From Candidatus Multivorans sp. (GTDB lineage Bacteria > Acidobacteriota > Thermoanaerobaculia > Multivoradales > Multivoraceae), in the NCBI GenBank assembly GCA_965224025.1, contig OZ245033.1:2816001-2880000 (forward strand): DNA of 64,000 nt. The letters are read 5' to 3'. The notes below the pieces were generated by a model, which saw nothing but the letters and a program-made list of their open reading frames with translations, was not told the origin of the DNA and did not search any database. Below are positions 35,948 through 41,806 of the stretch, piece by piece. The position numbers were made by a program, and so were the translations under genes. Numbering within the stretch: position 1 is the first letter of the stretch; each line of letters opens with the position of its first letter.

Positions 35948-36904
35948 ATGGAGGAGAAACCACCAGCGGAGACCCCGTCCGACGGCCTCGACTCGGTGGA
36001 GAACGAGCCGGATCGCAGTGATCCGATTCTCGATCTGCCGTTGAGCCTGAGCAGGGAGAGCGCCCCCGGCGAACCCACGGGCGCGGGCCCGTACCTTGAC
36101 GGCTCGGCCGAAGATCCGCCGCCGGACCGCTCCGGGACGATAGCCGTCATCGTCATCGCCGGTCTCATTCTCCTTGGCGGCGGTGCGGTGATCTGGTGGT
36201 GGTTCTCCAGCCGCTCCGAGGATCCCGTCGATCCAGACGCCGCGGCTGCGGCCGCCGCGGAGGTCTCCGCTCCCGAACCGAGCGCGGCGACGCCGGCCGC
36301 CGAGCCACCCGCCCCGGAACCGACGGCGCCGCCAGTCCTGTCCGAGAGCGATTCCCTGGTACGGGATGTCGTGGGCGGCCTGTCACAGCATGCACAGTGG
36401 ATGACGTGGTTCGTCCCCGAGGAGCTGGCGATGAACTTTGTGCGCGCGGTCGCAGCCGTCGCCTACGATGAGCCGCCCCAGTCGAGTCTGGAACCGCTGC
36501 AACCGGAGGAGGGCTTCAGCGTCGTGCGGCGTGGTCAACGCTTCTACCCGGCCGAGACGAGCTTTCGCCGCTATGACCTGGCGGTCGAGGTCTTCGATTC
36601 GATCGATGTCGCCGGCGTCTCCCGCGCCTACGAACGTCTGGAACCGCTGTTCGAGCAGGCGCACGATGAACTTGGTTACCCGAACGAGTTCGGCGACACG
36701 CTGGAACTCGCGGTGACCAGGCTGCTGGCGACGCCGACTCCGGACGCGCCGCCGGAACTTCGGTTGCGAGTGATCAGCTTCGAGTACGTCGATCCCGGTC
36801 TCGAGGGATTGAGCCCGGCCCAGAAGCTCCTGTTGCGCCTGGGTCCGGACAACGGCGACCGTGTTCGCGCGAAGGTCAGGGAACTCTACGGGGCGCTGCC
36901 CTAG
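35948..36904 (+). CDS. DUF3014-family membrane-anchored protein
   Basis: TM helix, Pro/Ala linker, LSESDSLVR, RRYD, PLFEQAHDELGYP, LEGLSPAQKLLLRLGPDN. Confidence 0.8.
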   Translation: MEEKPPAETPSDGLDSVENEPDRSDPILDLPLSLSRESAPGEPTGAGPYLDGSAEDPPPDRSGTIAVIVIAGLILLGGGAVIWWWFSSRSEDPVDPDAAAAAAAEVSAPEPSAATPAAEPPAPEPTAPPVLSESDSLVRDVVGGLSQHAQWMTWFVPEELAMNFVRAVAAVAYDEPPQSSLEPLQPEEGFSVVRRGQRFYPAETSFRRYDLAVEVFDSIDVAGVSRAYERLEPLFEQAHDELGYPNEFGDTLELAVTRLLATPTPDAPPELRLRVISFEYVDPGLEGLSPAQKLLLRLGPDNGDRVRAKVRELYGALP

Positions 36905-36917
36905 CCTACCGTAAACA

Positions 36918-36999
36918 ACTGGGTGCGCCGGCCTTCCGGCCGGCATTCGGCGCGCAGCGCCGGCCTTCCGACTGAGAGCCGGCCAGAAGGCCGGCGCAC
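36918..36999. repeat. Inverted pair of REP-like palindromic units between convergent genes
   Basis: GTGCGCCGGCCTTCCGGCCGGC (36923-36944) and GCCGGCCAGAAGGCCGGCGCAC (36978-36999) are reverse complements with 1 mismatch. An identical unit lies at 38636-38657. Confidence 0.85.
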
Positions 37000-37011
37000 G
37001 CAGTCGAGGCC

Positions 37012-38628
37012 CTAGCGCCCGAGGGCTCGGCGCTGCGCTTCGGCGTACCGCGCGAGCATCCGGTCGTAGACCGCGACTGCCTGGGGGCGAGGCGCGGCGG
37101 AAGGACCGGCCTCGCCGGCCGGCGGCAGAGGGTACGGCCTGCGCCCGGTCGCGCGTAGAGCGGCGCCCAGGGCTGCGCCGTCGCTGACCTCGTGCCCCTC
37201 GACGGTGCAGCCCATCACGTCGGCGGCGATCTGGAGCATCTCCCGATTGTGGGAGCCGCCTCCGGTAGCCAGAATCCGGCTGGGCCGGGTCGCCATCCAT
37301 TCCGAGTTGAGCCGCATGGACAGGAACTGCCCTTCGACGACGGCACGGCAGTTCTGAGCTGCGTGCTCCGGCGCATCCTCCAGGCCGTCCAGCCGAACGA
37401 CCCGCGGCGACGCCACGCGCGGGACGATCTCCGGTTCGAACCACGGCAGCATCATCTTGCCGTCGTTCCCGGGCGGAGTTGCCCGCAGCGACTCCTCGAA
37501 GCTTTGCCAGTCGAGACCGTGACGGTCCCGCACCGCTTCGCGCGCCAGCGACCCGTTGCGGAAGCAGATCAGGCTCATCGGATGACCGCTCGGCGCGATG
37601 AACACATGGCCGTTGGCATCGGGATCGACGGCGACATCGTCGAGCAGGCAGAAGTAGGTGTCGCTGGTCCCCAGGCTCAGCACAGCCTCACCCGGCTCGC
37701 GGACGCCGACGCCTACCAGGGAGCAGGGGTTGTCGCCGGAGCCGATGACCGCTTGCGCGTCCGCGGAAAATCCGTAGCGGTCCACGAAGCAGGGAGCGAT
37801 CTCTCCAACGATTGTCCAGGGCGGTTGGGACGGCAGTAGACGCCCGTCCAGCCCTTCGGCGGTGGCGGCAATGGCTGTTTCAGACCATTCCCGCCGCCGG
37901 ATGTCGAGCAGGTTCATGCCCGAACCGTCGCCGTGGTCGATCGGCGCCAGCCGGCCGGCAAGGACGGAGGTGACGAAGGAGCTGACCAGGCAGACGTGTG
38001 CGGTATCGGCCCATGCGTCGGGCTCGGTCCGAGCGAAGCGCCGGATCTGGGGCCCGGTGAAGCGCTCGAAGGCGTCGCTGCCGGTGAGTTCTGCGGTCGC
38101 TGCAGCGCCGCCGAGGGTGCGCCGAATCTCCGCGCACTCCCGCGTGGTGGAGGAATCGGTCCAGATCGGTGCTTCGGTGCGGGCAAGAAGAGGCTCGATC
38201 TGCTCCGCGAGGCCCCGGTCCGGGGTCAGGGACCGAAGGCCGGCCCCGGTTCCCGATCGGAGATAGACGGAGCCATGCTGCTGGCCCGACACCGACACGC
38301 CGCTGATCTTTCCGCACAGGTCGCTGCCCAGTCGTTCGAGCGCCAGGTCCAGAGCCTCAAGCCACATGCATGGTGGTACCCGTCCGATCGCCGGATCATC
38401 GTTGGGGAGCTGGCCGTTGACGGTGCCGAACTGAGGGAGTTCGGAGTCGTAGTGGACGCGTGCGCGCGCGGCGATCTCGAGCGCCCGGTCCTCGGCCTCT
38501 CCGTCGGGCGGCGTCGCCTCAACCAGAATTACGGTCAAGCTCTGTGTGCCGACATCGATTCCGAGGTAGAGGGCCCCACCGCCAGCGCGGTCGTCGCTCT
38601 GCGGTCGCCGCTTCGCGGCGCGTCTCAT
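37012..38628 (-). CDS. xylB: Xylulokinase (FGGY family, eukaryote-like XYLB type)
   Basis: YLGIDVGTQS, SGQQHGSVY, WTDSST, ERFTGPQIR, GSGMNL, GDNP, SLGTSDT, TGGGS. Clustered with xylA; start uncertain. Confidence 0.85.
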   Translation of the reverse strand: MRRAAKRRPQSDDRAGGGALYLGIDVGTQSLTVILVEATPPDGEAEDRALEIAARARVHYDSELPQFGTVNGQLPNDDPAIGRVPPCMWLEALDLALERLGSDLCGKISGVSVSGQQHGSVYLRSGTGAGLRSLTPDRGLAEQIEPLLARTEAPIWTDSSTTRECAEIRRTLGGAAATAELTGSDAFERFTGPQIRRFARTEPDAWADTAHVCLVSSFVTSVLAGRLAPIDHGDGSGMNLLDIRRREWSETAIAATAEGLDGRLLPSQPPWTIVGEIAPCFVDRYGFSADAQAVIGSGDNPCSLVGVGVREPGEAVLSLGTSDTYFCLLDDVAVDPDANGHVFIAPSGHPMSLICFRNGSLAREAVRDRHGLDWQSFEESLRATPPGNDGKMMLPWFEPEIVPRVASPRVVRLDGLEDAPEHAAQNCRAVVEGQFLSMRLNSEWMATRPSRILATGGGSHNREMLQIAADVMGCTVEGHEVSDGAALGAALRATGRRPYPLPPAGEAGPSAAPRPQAVAVYDRMLARYAEAQRRALGR

Positions 38629-38868
38629 CCCGGAAGCCGGCCAGAAGGCCGGCGCACCTGTACCTTTCCGGGATGCATTCTGGCGTGTCGTTGAGAGAGG
38701 TGGAATGGACCAGTAGCCGTCGTGGCTGCGGTAGCTGTGGGAAACCGGCTTGCCGGTTTTCCAAGGTCCGGCGGGAAACGGTCTGCCGTTTTCCGCCGGG
38801 CCGGCAGCTTCCGCAGCCGAGACCGCCGGTCGGTTGCGTCTCCGGCCTGCCGGAGTCACTGAAGGAAA

Positions 38869-39023
38869 GTCGGCAAGCAGCCAGGAGCAACCACCGGCGT
38901 ACTGTGCTTCGAGCACCTGGCTGGGACCCGTGCCCTGGCTGCTTCGCCGCGTTGGACGCCCAGTGGAGAGTCAGTGCCTTAGAGCACCAGTACAGGTACG
39001 GGCAGGCAACGCGGCATGCCGAC
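38869..39023 (+). ncRNA. IS110 bridge RNA core (target-binding loop + donor-binding loop); the transcript probably starts near 38672
   Basis: Closing stem 38869-38875/39017-39023; stem 38876-38885/38934-38943 encloses guides matching the target; stem 38946-38954/39007-39015 encloses guides matching the element junction. Each arm has a GTGC...GCAC apical hairpin. Confidence 0.85.
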
Positions 39024-39058
39024 CAGGCAACACTACCGCAAGGGAGAAGGAGGACGAG

Positions 39059-40312
39059 ATGACCAGGACGTGGTTCGTCGGCGTGGACTGGGGGTCCGAG
39101 ACCCACCACGTGTGTGTGCTGGATCGGGACGGCAAGGTGAGGGGGGAGCGGGCGTTCGACCACAGCGGCAAGGGACTTGCCGCCATGGCCGACTGGCTCC
39201 TTGGACATACCCGACCGACGTCTCCGGACGAGATCGGCGTCGCCATCGAGGTGCCGCACGGACCGGTGGTCGAGACTCTCCTGGAGCGGGGCTTCGCCGT
39301 GCATTCGATCAACCCCAAGCAGCTCGACCGCTTCAGGGACCGCTTCTCCGTCGCCGGCGCCAAGGATGACCGCCGCGATGCACGGGCGCTCGCCGCCGCG
39401 CTTCGCACCGACCCCGAGTGCCTGAACCGCGTGCAACCATCCGATGCAGCCATCGTGATGCTGCGCGAGGTGTCCCGCGGCCGCAAGCAGTTGGTCGGCC
39501 AGAAGAACCGCCTGGAGAACCAGGTCCGCGACCAGCTCTGGCGCTACTACCCGCAGTTTCTCGCCGTGGTCAAGAACGAGGTGTCGGCGCCCTTCGCGCT
39601 GGCCTTGTGGCGACTGGCGCCGACCCCCGACAAGGCTCGACGGCTGCGCGAAGACACGCTCGCCAAACTGCTCAAGGAACACCGCATCCGGCGCCTGACT
39701 GCCGCCCAACTGCGCGATCAACTGCGGGCCGAGCCGATCGCCGTTTCCCCGGACACCGTTAAGGCCGCCGTCGAACACATAGGACTCCTCCGGCCGGTGC
39801 TCGACACCGTCTGCCGCCAACTCGCCGACGCCGAAAGGCGGCTGGAGCGGATGACCCGCGCACTCGAAGCCGACCTCTCCCGGGAAAACGACGACGACAC
39901 GCCCAAGCCGAGCGACGCCGCCATCCTCAGGTCGCTGCCCGGACTCGGCAAGGTCGGCCTCGCCACCCTGCTCTCCGAGGCCGATCAAAGCCTGGGCCGC
40001 AGAGACTACGAGGCACTGCGTTGCCTCTGCGGAGTGGCGCCGGTGACCGTCAAGTCCGGCAAGAAGCTCATCGTCATGCGACGACTCGCCGCCAACGAAC
40101 ACCTCAGCGACGCCGTCTATCACTGGGGACGAGTCGCCATCCAGCACGACCCGATCAGCCGCGCCAAGTACGACGCCATGAAAGCCGAAGGCAAGACACA
40201 CGGACGAGCCATCAGACAACTCGTCGATCGACTCCTCGGCGTCGCCTGCGCCATGCTCCGAGACCGCACTCTCTTCGACCCCAACAAGAGAAGCCATGCC
40301 CAGGTCGCATGA
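39059..40312 (+). CDS. IS110-family DEDD recombinase/transposase
   Basis: VGVDWGSETH (D), IEVPHG (E), KDDRRDA (DD), SLPGLG, GVAPVTVKSGK (Tnp-domain Ser). GGAGG RBS before ATG 39059. Confidence 0.95.
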   Translation: MTRTWFVGVDWGSETHHVCVLDRDGKVRGERAFDHSGKGLAAMADWLLGHTRPTSPDEIGVAIEVPHGPVVETLLERGFAVHSINPKQLDRFRDRFSVAGAKDDRRDARALAAALRTDPECLNRVQPSDAAIVMLREVSRGRKQLVGQKNRLENQVRDQLWRYYPQFLAVVKNEVSAPFALALWRLAPTPDKARRLREDTLAKLLKEHRIRRLTAAQLRDQLRAEPIAVSPDTVKAAVEHIGLLRPVLDTVCRQLADAERRLERMTRALEADLSRENDDDTPKPSDAAILRSLPGLGKVGLATLLSEADQSLGRRDYEALRCLCGVAPVTVKSGKKLIVMRRLAANEHLSDAVYHWGRVAIQHDPISRAKYDAMKAEGKTHGRAIRQLVDRLLGVACAMLRDRTLFDPNKRSHAQVA

Positions 40313-40441
40313 CCTGCCTGACCCGCAGCAACCTCCCCAAAACACACTTGCTAAAGGGTGGAGAGTCCCAGTCACGCTGGCGGACTGGTCCTGCCGCCCC
40401 CTCCGCTCTCTGGTCAGGCGGGTGCGTCCGCACGGCCGTCG

Positions 40442-41806
40442 TTACTCGATGTGGGTGCTGTACAGGTAGTCGTTGAGGATGCTCTCGAGCTCCTCCTGGC
40501 GGCCGCTGATCTTCGGCGGTTCGCCGAGTCGTCCGGCCCAGTCCTCGAGTTCCTCGAGGGTGGTCTCGCCGGCCAGGAGCTTGCGGCCGAGGCCGCGGCG
40601 GTAGCCGGCGTAGCGCTGCCGAATCCGCTTGCCGGCGAGGCCGAGGACGCCGTCCTTCCGGATGCGGTCGACGATCAGGAGCGCCTTGGCGAAGACGTCC
40701 ATCGACGCGATGTGGGCGTAGAACAGGTCAACGGTGTCAAAGGAGCCGCGACGGACCTTGGCGTCGAAGTTCAGGCCGCCCCAGCGCAGGCCGCCCTGGC
40801 CCTGGATGATGAGCAGGGCCAGGACGCATTCGCGGAGGCTCATGGCGAAGTTGTCCGTGTCCCAGCCGACGCCTTCCAGACCGCGGTTGATGTCGACGCT
40901 GCCGAGCATTCCGGCGCCCGCCGCGGTCGCCAGCTCGTGTTCGAAGGAGTGGGTGGCGAGCGTCGCGTGATTCGCCTCGACGTTGAGCAGGAAGTCGTCT
41001 GTCAGCTCGAACTCGCGCAGGAAGTTCAGGCAGTGCCCGCAGTCGAAATCGTACTGGTGGATGGAGGGTTCCTTCGCCTTGGGTTCGAGGAAGAACCTGC
41101 CCTTGAAGCCATGGCGCCGGGCGTAGTCGACGGCGAGCCGGAGGAAGGCGGCCAGTTGCTCGCGTTCGCGGCGCATGTCCGTGTTGATCAGCGAGGTGTA
41201 GCCCTCTCGGCCGCCCCAGAACACGTATCCGGCGCCGCCGAGTTCGATCGTGGCGTCGATGGCGCGCCGGACCTGGGCGGCCGCGTGGGCGAAGACCCGG
41301 GGATCCGGGTTCGTCGCCGCGCCGTGGGTGTAGCGCGGGTGGCCGAACAGGTTCGCCGTGCCCCAGAGCAGCTTGACGCCGGTCTCGCGCTGCCGGATTC
41401 GCGCCAGTTGGACGATCTCCTCCAGGTACTCGTTGCTCTCGGCGACAGAGCGGCCTTCGGGCGCGATGTCCCGGTCGTGGAAGCAGTAGTAGCGCACGCC
41501 GAGCTTGGTGAAGAACTCGAACGCGGCGTTGAGCGTCCGCTGGGCGACCTCGATCGGTGTCGACGCGTGGCTCCAGGGGCGGTCGTACACGGGATCCGGT
41601 CCGAACGGGTCCTGGCCGCCGCCCTTCAAGGTGTGCCAGTAGGCGACCGCGAACTTGAGTTGCCGCTCCATCGTGGAGCGGCCGACCTTCCGCGTGCGGT
41701 CGTAGTACTTGAACGCGAGCGGGTCGCGGCTGTCGGGGCCTTGGAAAGGGATCGCCGTCTGGATCTCCGGGAAGAACGGCTCGACTTGGGGGAAGAAGGG
41801 CGTCAT
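40442..41806 (-). CDS. xylA: Xylose isomerase (class II)
   Basis: FAVAYWHT, FHDRD, WGTANLF, VFWGGREGY, EPKAKEP, HQYDFD, NVEANHA, GWDTD, GGLNFDAKVRR. Start trimmed to ATG 41806. Confidence 0.95.
   Translation of the reverse strand: MTPFFPQVEPFFPEIQTAIPFQGPDSRDPLAFKYYDRTRKVGRSTMERQLKFAVAYWHTLKGGGQDPFGPDPVYDRPWSHASTPIEVAQRTLNAAFEFFTKLGVRYYCFHDRDIAPEGRSVAESNEYLEEIVQLARIRQRETGVKLLWGTANLFGHPRYTHGAATNPDPRVFAHAAAQVRRAIDATIELGGAGYVFWGGREGYTSLINTDMRREREQLAAFLRLAVDYARRHGFKGRFFLEPKAKEPSIHQYDFDCGHCLNFLREFELTDDFLLNVEANHATLATHSFEHELATAAGAGMLGSVDINRGLEGVGWDTDNFAMSLRECVLALLIIQGQGGLRWGGLNFDAKVRRGSFDTVDLFYAHIASMDVFAKALLIVDRIRKDGVLGLAGKRIRQRYAGYRRGLGRKLLAGETTLEELEDWAGRLGEPPKISGRQEELESILNDYLYSTHIE

What the first reader, a model, noticed from the sequence alone, without database searches (positions are those of the whole stretch)
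36918..40373. The IS110 targets a resident REP-like repeat, and an empty target sits 1.7 kb away
Seen in sequence: removing 38659-40368 leaves GCCGGCCAGAAGGCCGGCGCACCCAGT. This equals the reverse complement of the intact unit at 36918-36944 except at one position, which fixes both element ends independently of the RNA model. A third unit (36978 onward) reads GGCGCACGCAGTC, with the CC core changed to CG. Inference: the bridge RNA is programmed against a multicopy intergenic repeat, as IS621 is with E. coli REPs. The 36918 copy is a predicted free landing site and the CG copy should be immune.
Basis: partly seen in the sequence, partly recalled or inferred. Interest (0 to 1): 0.75.

Follow-up and report, generated by a model that had tools for sequence, protein, structure and literature searches.

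The report
Bridge-RNA insertion sequence targeting resident REP repeats
A 1.7-kb IS110-type jumping gene carries its own guide RNA aimed at a short hairpin repeat scattered through this bacterium's genome, so every copy sits in that repeat; this is a clear new example of a mechanism already described in E. coli and Pseudomonas.

Summary
Window 38659-40368 is a 1710-bp IS110-family element with a CC core. Its 417-aa recombinase has the two expected Pfam domains and matches the IS621 transposase in PDB.

Removing the element restores a 27-nt hairpin repeat. That repeat differs at one base from the reverse complement of 36918-36944. The same intact 27-mer sits at the orthologous, IS-free locus of two other species of the genus.

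- **Insertion sites:** all 17 left ends of the element in this genome abut the same repeat tail. 60 matching empty sites remain.
- **The repeat is resident:** it occurs in 16 of 18 other genomes of the genus searched for it, mostly without this IS. In one relative it flanks a Y1 (RAYT-like) transposase gene.
- **Bridge RNA:** it lies at about 38876-39012. Its four guides match the target and donor. Its stems show compensatory changes. Its guides covary with the flanks across 22 guide classes in 91 related elements.

That the CG-core unit is "immune" remains an inference. No insertion lies at any of 15 non-CC sites, a weak result (P about 0.02).

Overall this is a new member of a known kind (IS621, ISPpu9/10). 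One side finding: a Y-shaped RNA-like module in the left end is shared with an IS21-like element.

The parts
36918..36944 (-). Intact REP unit (hairpin plus tail), an unoccupied target; core at 36922-36923
   Evidence: its reverse complement equals the restored site except at position 8. It is identical over the guided 14 nt. It is one of 50 exact GGCGCACCCAGT sites.
36978..37005 (+). REP unit with a CG core variant (36999-37000). With the 36918 unit it forms an inverted pair 73 nt apart
   Evidence: With the strict left-target motif, CG-core variants occur 8 times in the genome. None is occupied.
38636..38658 (+). Left part of the REP split by the IS: hairpin 38636-38654, left target and core CC (38657-38658)
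   Evidence: hairpin -16.4 kcal/mol. The orthologous intact unit is in G041 and G012.
38659..40368 (+). IS110-family insertion sequence, 1710 bp, no terminal inverted repeats, CC at both junctions
   Evidence: 12 full-length copies at 97-100% identity plus partial ones. Boundaries and from the empty orthologous site.
38661..38666 (+). -10-like hexamer TACCTT at left-end positions 3-8. It would sit 17 nt from the right-end -35 only in the excised circle
   Evidence: TACNNT at this place in 21 of 21 end classes of relatives. Inference only; no expression data.
38708..38830 (+). Y-shaped structured module (three-way junction, two near-duplicate hairpins) between the left-end tip and the bridge RNA
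   Evidence: -86.3 kcal/mol, z -9.1; conserved structure with invariant G-U pairs. It is missing from copies M and N. It is also found inside an IS21-like element.
38876..38943 (+). Bridge RNA target-binding loop: outer stem 38876-38885/38934-38943, LTG 38894-38903, inner hairpin 38904-38916, RTG 38920-38925
   Evidence: LTG reads CCGGCG(U)AC like the top strand of the left target. RTG GCUGGG is the complement of CCCAGC/T. Covariation with flanks.
38949..39012 (+). Bridge RNA donor-binding loop: outer stem 38949-38961/39000-39012, LDG 38963-38973, inner hairpin 38974-38987, RDG 38990-38996
   Evidence: LDG GUGGAGAGUC equals the right-end tip 40358-40367. RDG GUACAGG is the complement of CC plus the left-end tip TGTAC. 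An A-to-G change in the G010 right end is mirrored in its LDG.
39059..40312 (+). Recombinase gene, 417 codons plus stop
   Evidence: PF01548 2e-33, PF02371 1.7e-12. IS621 transposase 8wt6 E 7e-12, ISCro4 9t56 E 8.4e-10. D10, E64, D104, D107 and S333 align with the IS621 motifs. The ORF is intact in 10 of 14 copies.
40348..40353 (+). -35-like hexamer TTGCTA, 15 nt before the right-end tip
   Evidence: TTGNNA (one TTTACA) at this fixed distance in 21 of 21 classes. No sigma-70-like promoter is found inside the integrated element.
40369..40372 (+). Right part of the split REP (right target CAGT)

Best explanation
An IS110-group, bridge-RNA-guided insertion sequence has inserted into a pre-existing REP unit just upstream of an FGGY-kinase gene.

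Proposed mechanism (steps marked shown or inferred):
- The DEDD/Ser recombinase excises the element as a circle. The joined right and left ends then form a promoter, with -35 in the right end and -10 in the left end (inferred).
- That promoter transcribes the left end, which holds a Y-shaped module and then the bridge RNA (inferred).
- The donor loop of the bridge RNA pairs with the right-end/left-end junction around the CC core (complementarity shown).
- The target loop pairs with CCGGCG[C/T]AC on the bottom strand and CCCAG[C/T] on the top strand. This is the 3' arm and tail of the REP hairpin (complementarity shown).
- Strand exchange at CC places the element between ...GCGCACC and CAGT... 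(junctions shown).

G-U wobble lets one guide serve both REP alleles: GCGCACC..CAGT and GCGTACC..CAGC. The repeat is a resident family of the genus, so the genome offers dozens of safe intergenic landing sites. About a fifth of them are now occupied.
For: **Protein.** Pfam PF01548 and PF02371; PDB hits to IS621 and ISCro4 transposases with catalytic motifs aligned.

**Copies and sites in this genome.**
- 14 of 14 complete or near-complete copies, and 17 of 17 left-end junctions, follow GCCGGCG[C/T]ACC.
- 15 right ends are followed by C[A/G]G[T/C].
- Sequence beyond the repeat is unrelated between copies, and hairpin loops differ.

**Empty orthologous site** in G041 and G012.

**The repeat is resident.**
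- The 15-mer occurs in 16 of 18 same-genus genomes (3-251 copies) against 0-1 for the reversed control, and in 1 of 12 genomes outside the genus.
- In that same draw of 18 same-genus genomes, the IS or relatives covering most of its length occur only in G016, G010 and G013.

**Bridge RNA.**
- It folds into two loops, each holding a hairpin.
- On 21 orthologues, 94.4% of cells are paired and 12 of 33 pairs show compensatory change. Slid controls give 28-44% paired and 2-4 such pairs.

**Guide-target covariation.**
- The G016 copy (84% identical) sits in GTCCGCGCACC|CAGAGA, and its LTG and RTG carry exactly those changes.
- 10 of 10 G010 copies (70% identical) are in the same REP, with RTG ACUGGG matching CCCAGT.
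- Of 106 elements examined, 91 could be parsed, giving 22 guide classes. The cognate LTG+RTG exact match averages 14.1 nt, against 8.1 nt for non-cognate pairs.

**Junction promoter** motifs are conserved in 21 of 21 end classes.

**Literature.** PMC11208160 (passages) gives the guide rules, REP targeting by IS621, promoter reconstitution on the circle and the core preference.
Against: - No expression, circle or activity data exist. Logan contigs of 4 runs show no contig that joins across the IS, so ongoing mobility is unshown. Copies A and B are near-identical (both listed as 100% identical to the query, 3085 versus 3076 bits; the two ORFs are identical), which suggests recent movement.
- The last LTG base (U) meets the second core base only as a G-U wobble. 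The last LDG base (A) mismatches it.
- The guide allele carried by a copy does not always fit its own site. Copies I and M carry C-guides in T-allele targets, a C-A mismatch. This needs bridge RNA acting in trans from another copy, tolerance of the mismatch, or a later mutation.
- No promoter is found in the integrated element. The bridge RNA lies about 210 nt downstream of the proposed junction promoter, behind a very stable structure, so its 5' end and any processing are unknown.
- 4 of 14 copies have a frameshifted recombinase gene.
Confidence: 0.9

Rival explanations
1. The recombinase recognises the REP hairpin itself, through protein-DNA or structure recognition as RAYT or IS200/IS605 enzymes do. 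The complementarity in the left end would then be incidental.
For: All 17 occupied sites have a stable hairpin immediately 5' of the crossover (-12.8 to -22.1 kcal/mol), slightly stronger than the 60 empty sites (median -17.1 versus -15.75, Mann-Whitney P 0.054). A preprint on ISPpu10 (abstract read) reports that a target stem-loop adds specificity on top of RNA pairing.
Against: Guides and flanks change together across 22 guide classes with quite different targets, several of them not this repeat. The hairpin preference is not significant here. It is also compatible with the RNA model, as an added layer.
Confidence: 0.04
2. The copies spread with their flanks by segmental duplication or by homologous recombination between REP units, not by site-specific insertion.
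For: REPs are recombination-prone repeats. Several copies lie in clusters (C1 2.007-2.027 Mb and 0.289-0.299 Mb).
Against: Flanks outside the roughly 30-nt repeat are unrelated in all 14 copies, and hairpin loops differ. The crossover is at the same CC to the base in 17 of 17 junctions. The orthologous locus in two species is precisely empty.
Confidence: 0.02
3. The repeat units are footprints or solo ends left by the IS, not an independent resident family.
For: The repeat tail and the IS are always adjacent in this genome.
Against: The repeat is present, often at 100-250 copies, in genus genomes where the IS DNA search found nothing comparable (for example G017, G018, G004, G008). It shares no sequence with the IS ends beyond the CC core. 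In G008 it flanks a Y1 transposase gene.
Confidence: 0.02

Closest known systems
IS621 (IS110 family, E. coli) and its bridge RNA
   Same: - DEDD plus Ser recombinase (PDB 8wt6 hit).
- Guide RNA in the left end with a target loop and a donor loop.
- LTG/LDG read like the top strand; RTG/RDG are complementary to it.
- 2-nt core repeated at both junctions.
- Natural targets are REPs, with one wobble tolerated.
- A promoter is formed on the circle (PMC11208160).
- The left end even starts with TGTA in both. The IS621 half of this last point is recalled; it was not seen in a call.
   Different: - The core is CC, not CT.
- The recombinase is 417 aa against 328 in the PDB chain, and only remotely similar (E 7e-12).
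- The left end is 400 bp, with a roughly 120-nt structured module ahead of the bridge RNA.
- The host is an uncultured Acidobacteriota lineage, judged from the record titles of the closest IS relatives.
- The target repeat is unrelated to E. coli REPs.
ISPpu9 / ISPpu10 of Pseudomonas putida
   Same: IS110-family elements whose copies all sit in REP or conserved intergenic hairpin sequences. For ISPpu10 the target has a GC-rich stem-loop 5' of the paired bases. (PMC12288879: search-listing abstract only. bioRxiv 10.64898/2026.03.19.712850: abstract.)
   Different: Whether the hairpin gates insertion here is untested (P 0.054). The ISPpu9 accessory small RNA lies downstream of the transposase, whereas the extra module here is upstream, in the left end.
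REP/RAYT (REPIN) systems
   Same: A short GC-rich hairpin with a conserved tail, at tens to hundreds of copies. There are inverted pairs (3 of the 5 close pairs found). Genus genomes with a Y1 transposase hit have more copies (median 83 versus 11.5). In G008 the Y1 gene is flanked by the repeat.
   Different: This genome has no Y1 transposase (0 hits at 100% completeness), so its repeats are orphans. RAYT identity of the Y1 genes was not established: one of the two loci examined (L143) has no repeat nearby.

Membership tests
IS110 family, IS110 group (bridge recombinase elements) | [quoted passage not shown] | tested here: met
   E 2e-33, residues 7-165. D10, E64, D104 and D107 align with the IS621 motifs.
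IS110 family, IS110 group (bridge recombinase elements) | C-terminal domain with a conserved serine (PF02371) | tested here: met
   E 1.7e-12, residues 288-371. S333 in VKSGKK aligns with the serine of YESGSS in 8wt6. That this is the catalytic serine is recalled, not shown by a call.
IS110 family, IS110 group (bridge recombinase elements) | No terminal inverted repeats; a short core repeated at both junctions; long left end, short right end | tested here: met
   Core CC at both junctions in 14 of 14 copies. Left end 400 bp, right end 56 bp. Terminal inverted repeats were not searched for with the repeat finder; the end sequences printed show none.
IS110 family, IS110 group (bridge recombinase elements) | Non-coding RNA in the left end with two internal loops, supported by covariation | tested here: met
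   94.4% paired, 12 of 33 pairs with compensatory change, 0 of 500 shuffles reach the score, slid controls 28-44%.
IS110 family, IS110 group (bridge recombinase elements) | Loop guides complementary to the target and to the donor junction, covarying with them | tested here: met
IS110 family, IS110 group (bridge recombinase elements) | Circular intermediate with a junction promoter; RNA-dependent recombination | not testable with these tools
   Only conserved -35 and -10 motifs at the right spacing. Contigs show no circle or empty site.
REP (repetitive extragenic palindrome) with RAYT | Short imperfect palindrome, many copies per genome | tested here: met
   60 empty plus 17 occupied sites here, up to 251 copies of the 15-mer in relatives.
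REP (repetitive extragenic palindrome) with RAYT | Extragenic location | tested here: inconclusive
   Intergenic at the three units of this window and at the orthologous loci. No genome-wide gene calls were made. About 8 of the 60 tail matches lack a hairpin and may be chance matches in genes.
REP (repetitive extragenic palindrome) with RAYT | Cognate Y1 (RAYT) transposase in the genome, flanked by the repeat | tested here: not met
   0 PF01797 hits in this genome. Found in 25 of 41 other genus genomes. Flanked by the repeat in G008 but not in the G016 locus.

The most novel reading that the evidence does not exclude
The roughly 120-nt Y-shaped element at 38708-38830 may be a portable, strand-specific RNA module that unrelated insertion sequences of this lineage exchange and keep just inside an end. 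It would act there as a read-through or maturation control for the bridge-RNA transcript.

What supports this reading:
- It has invariant G-U pairs, which fit only the + strand.
- It is kept at 87-100% identity in IS110-type elements whose recombinases are only 65-70% identical.
- It is lost from two copies by independent deletions.
- It is also present, antisense to istB, inside an IS21-like element in the same genome.

Separately, the two guide alleles (U or C at 38900) that coexist in this genome may track the two REP alleles.
Probability: 0.2. Interest if true: 0.55.

Novelty: new member of a known kind. Interest (0 to 1): 0.3.

Why it matters
This is a clean natural illustration of bridge-RNA targeting outside the Proteobacteria. 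One genome shows the guide, the used sites, the 60 unused sites, core variants that are avoided, and wobble that covers two target alleles. Related species supply the exact empty site.

The family of 22 guide classes with a conserved donor and CC core is a ready-made natural reprogramming series for anyone engineering bridge recombinases. It does not change the known mechanism.

The shared Y-shaped module is the only part that could lead somewhere new.

Tried and rejected
**Rfam.** Nothing over 36500-40800 except a chance isrG match (15.5 bits against a gathering score of 100). The held Rfam copy has no family that matched this bridge RNA or the Y module.

**Public reads.** Three runs hold the stretch as Logan contigs and one holds small parts. 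The contigs break at the repeats. No contig joins 38658 to 40369 and none shows an insertion at 36922-36923. One X5 contig runs 37419-38665 across the occupied left junction. This says nothing about the absence of empty-site molecules. I did not interpret depth.

**Promoter scan.** No sigma-70-like site in the integrated element.

**Hairpin as an extra determinant.** A trend only: P 0.054, and Fisher 0.19 at a -8 kcal/mol cut.

**Guide allele against own-site allele.** U-guide in T-site 2, U-guide in C-site 3, C-guide in T-site 2, C-guide in C-site 7. No association.

**Core immunity.** 0 of 17 insertions lie at the 15 non-CC sites, against 44 empty CC sites. That gives P about 0.024 if the element were indifferent to the core, assuming independent and equally available sites.

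**Parsing of related elements.** 15 of 106 elements were skipped because no right end or no loop was found within the 1200-nt flank. They are left out of the 91.

**Literature on this lineage.** One search with the terms Thermoanaerobaculia, Multivorans, IS110, repetitive extragenic palindromic and Acidobacteriota (at least 3 of 5) found 2 papers, neither on this subject. I make no wider claim of absence from print.

Full report
**Observation.**
- Bases 38636-38658 plus 40369-40372 form a 27-nt unit: a 7-bp GC hairpin with a 4-nt loop, then the tail GCACC|CAGT.
- This unit differs from the reverse complement of 36918-36944 at one base.
- A third unit at 36978-37005 is the same except that the central CC reads CG.
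- The tail is far over-represented. The 12-mer occurs 50 times against 2.5 expected, and the 15-mer 35 times against 0.1 expected.

**What lies between.**
- 38659-40368 encodes a 417-aa protein with PF01548 (2e-33) and PF02371 (1.7e-12).
- Its only PDB relatives are the IS621 and ISCro4 transposases. The acidic motifs and a serine align.
- The element has a 400-bp left end and a 56-bp right end, with CC at both junctions.
- In the window it sits between two minus-strand genes. It lies 30 bp upstream of the ATG I took as the start of an FGGY-family kinase gene (38628), and downstream of a gene with a xylose-isomerase-like TIM barrel.

**Other copies.**
- The genome, which is the window's own assembly (G000, 5.14 Mb), holds 12 full-length copies at 97-100% identity.
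- Two further copies lack about 76-80 nt of the left end, and there are several fragments.
- All 14 complete or near-complete copies follow GCCGGCG[C/T]ACC and precede C[A/G]G[T/C].
- Sequence further out is unrelated between copies, and the hairpin loops differ.
- A pattern search that leaves the four bases before the left-end tip free finds 17 left ends, all preceded by [C/T]ACC.
- 60 sites matching GGCG[CT]ACCCAG[CT] are unoccupied, so roughly a fifth of such sites are used.
- The recombinase ORF is intact in 10 of 14 copies. One is frameshifted near codon 20 and three near codon 401.

**The empty site.**
- The kinase-gene flank was searched in all 42 held genomes of the genus, and every genome has it.
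- In G041 (88% identity) and G012, the flank runs through an uninterrupted unit identical to the predicted 27-mer. It then continues into the homologue of window 40394 onward.
- G008 and G001 also carry a unit of the family at this place.
- The IS is therefore an insertion into a repeat that was already there.

**The repeat is resident.**
- The 15-mer occurs in 16 of 18 other genus genomes searched, at 3 to 251 copies. The reversed control gives 0-1. Outside the genus, 1 of 12 genomes has a single match.
- In the same draw of 18, DNA of the IS covering most of its length occurs only in G016 (one copy at 84% identity, plus more distant ones), G010 (at least 10 copies at 70%) and G013 (one at 69%).
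- This genome has no Y1 transposase, but 25 of 41 other genus genomes do.
- Among the 19 genomes with both counts, those with a Y1 hit have a median of 83 repeat copies, against 11.5 without. In G008 the Y1 gene is flanked by units of this repeat. In the G016 locus it is not.
- I therefore call it a REP family, probably RAYT-linked in the genus and orphaned here.

**The bridge RNA.**
- Using the rule from PMC11208160, I located the four guides. The rule is that left guides read like the top strand of left target or donor plus core, and right guides are complementary to core plus right target or donor.
  - LTG: CCGGCGUACU at 38894-38903
  - RTG: GCUGGG at 38920-38925
  - LDG: GUGGAGAGUCA at 38963-38973
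  - RDG: GUACAGG at 38990-38996
- Each pair of guides flanks a small hairpin inside a stem-closed loop (-77.7 kcal/mol, z -2.6).
- On 21 orthologues, 94.4% of cells pair and 12 of 33 pairs show compensatory change. 0 of 500 shuffles reach the covariation score, and slid controls pair at 28-44%.
- The guide as written is a perfect match to the GCGTACC..CAGC allele of the repeat. It matches the commoner GCGCACC..CAGT allele through two G-U/G-T wobbles.

**Covariation with targets.**
- The G016 copy sits in a variant unit (GTCCGCGCACC|CAGAGA), and its LTG and RTG carry exactly these bases.
- The G010 element has a right end with G where this element has A, and so does its LDG. All 10 copies fetched from G010 lie in the same repeat.
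- A scan of genome contigs found 171 relatives, of which 80 were kept. They lie in MAGs titled Candidatus Multivorans, Thermoanaerobaculia and Vicinamibacterales, plus a few others.
- Of 106 elements examined, 91 could be parsed into 22 guide classes. Many of these classes have quite different targets.
- Cognate guide-flank exact matches average 14.1 nt (range 9-19), against 8.1 nt for 462 non-cognate pairings.
- The donor guides, the TGTAC left-end tip and the CC core are conserved throughout.

**Expression model (inferred).**
- No promoter-like site lies in the integrated element.
- In all 21 end classes, a TTGNNA hexamer (one TTTACA) lies 15 nt before the right-end tip, and TACNNT lies at left-end positions 3-8.
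- Joining the ends would give a 17-nt spacer. This matches the circle promoter described for IS110 elements in PMC11208160.

**The CG unit.**
- In IS621, pairing to both strands of the core is strongly preferred.
- With the strict left-target motif, the empty sites here are 44 with a CC core, 8 CG, 6 CT and 1 CA. All 17 insertions are at CC.
- That fits avoidance of non-CC cores, but only weakly (P about 0.02 under simple assumptions). "Immune" remains a prediction.

**Comparison and novelty.**
- Everything tested places this element in the IS110 group of bridge-RNA elements.
- REP targeting is the known habit of IS621 and of ISPpu9/ISPpu10.
- What is new is the host lineage, the CC core, the particular repeat and the long left end. 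This makes it a new member of a known kind.

**Side finding.**
- Left ends of the Thermoanaerobaculia-type elements are about 170 nt longer than those of the Vicinamibacterales-type.
- The extra part includes a Y-shaped element at 38708-38830 (-86.3 kcal/mol, z -9.1).
- It has two near-duplicate hairpins and invariant G-U pairs, which fit only the + strand.
- It is 87-100% conserved among elements whose recombinases are 65-70% identical.
- It is absent from two copies through different deletions.
- It is also present, at 87-89% identity and antisense to istB, next to the terminal repeats of an IS21-like element in this genome, and solo in other genus genomes.
- Its role is unknown.

Noticed in passing
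window 38708-38830; also G000 C1 around 2474161, 3672584, 4048787, 1301954 (L018-L020, L023): A Y-shaped, very stable structured module with strand-specific G-U pairs sits in the IS110 left end. At 87-89% identity it also sits inside an IS21-like element, downstream of and antisense to istB, beside repeated GGAAAGTGAGCCACC terminal motifs. Solo matches occur in several genus genomes.
   Followed up: partly
G000 C1:598851-600480 and C1:3853425-3855042 (copies N and M): Two IS copies lack the Y module through deletions with different end points. Both also carry the frameshift near codon 401.
   Followed up: partly
window 38900 and the same position in the 13 other copies: The left target guide is polymorphic within the genome (U in 5 copies, C in 9), at exactly the position where the repeat family is polymorphic (C or T). 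Guide allele and own-site allele are not correlated.
   Followed up: yes
L144 (G008:C393:1-2004): A Y1 transposase (PF01797) gene is flanked by units of the same repeat in opposite orientations, with a tandem array of five more units nearby. This looks like a RAYT with its REPs.
   Followed up: partly
L095 (Azospirillum canadense record) and L109: The right-end tip GGGGAGTCC is followed directly by TGTAC..., which is a donor-like right-end/left-end junction. This suggests a tandem or nested copy, or a left-end remnant.
   Followed up: no
L079, L081, L082, L085-L087, L105 (Vicinamibacterales MAGs): An internal GCGGGAGTCC|TTTCC sequence about 258 nt after the recombinase gene resembles a right end next to a target-like right flank. 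The true right end lies beyond the 1200-nt flank, so these elements may carry extra DNA.
   Followed up: no
G000 C1:298626-298700, right of copy B: Two tandem repeat units 35 nt apart lie immediately after an occupied unit. One has the C allele and one the T allele.
   Followed up: no
window 38628-38658: The IS separates the FGGY-kinase start codon (38628, minus strand) from whatever lies upstream, with only 30 bp left. Its insertion may affect expression of that gene.
   Followed up: no
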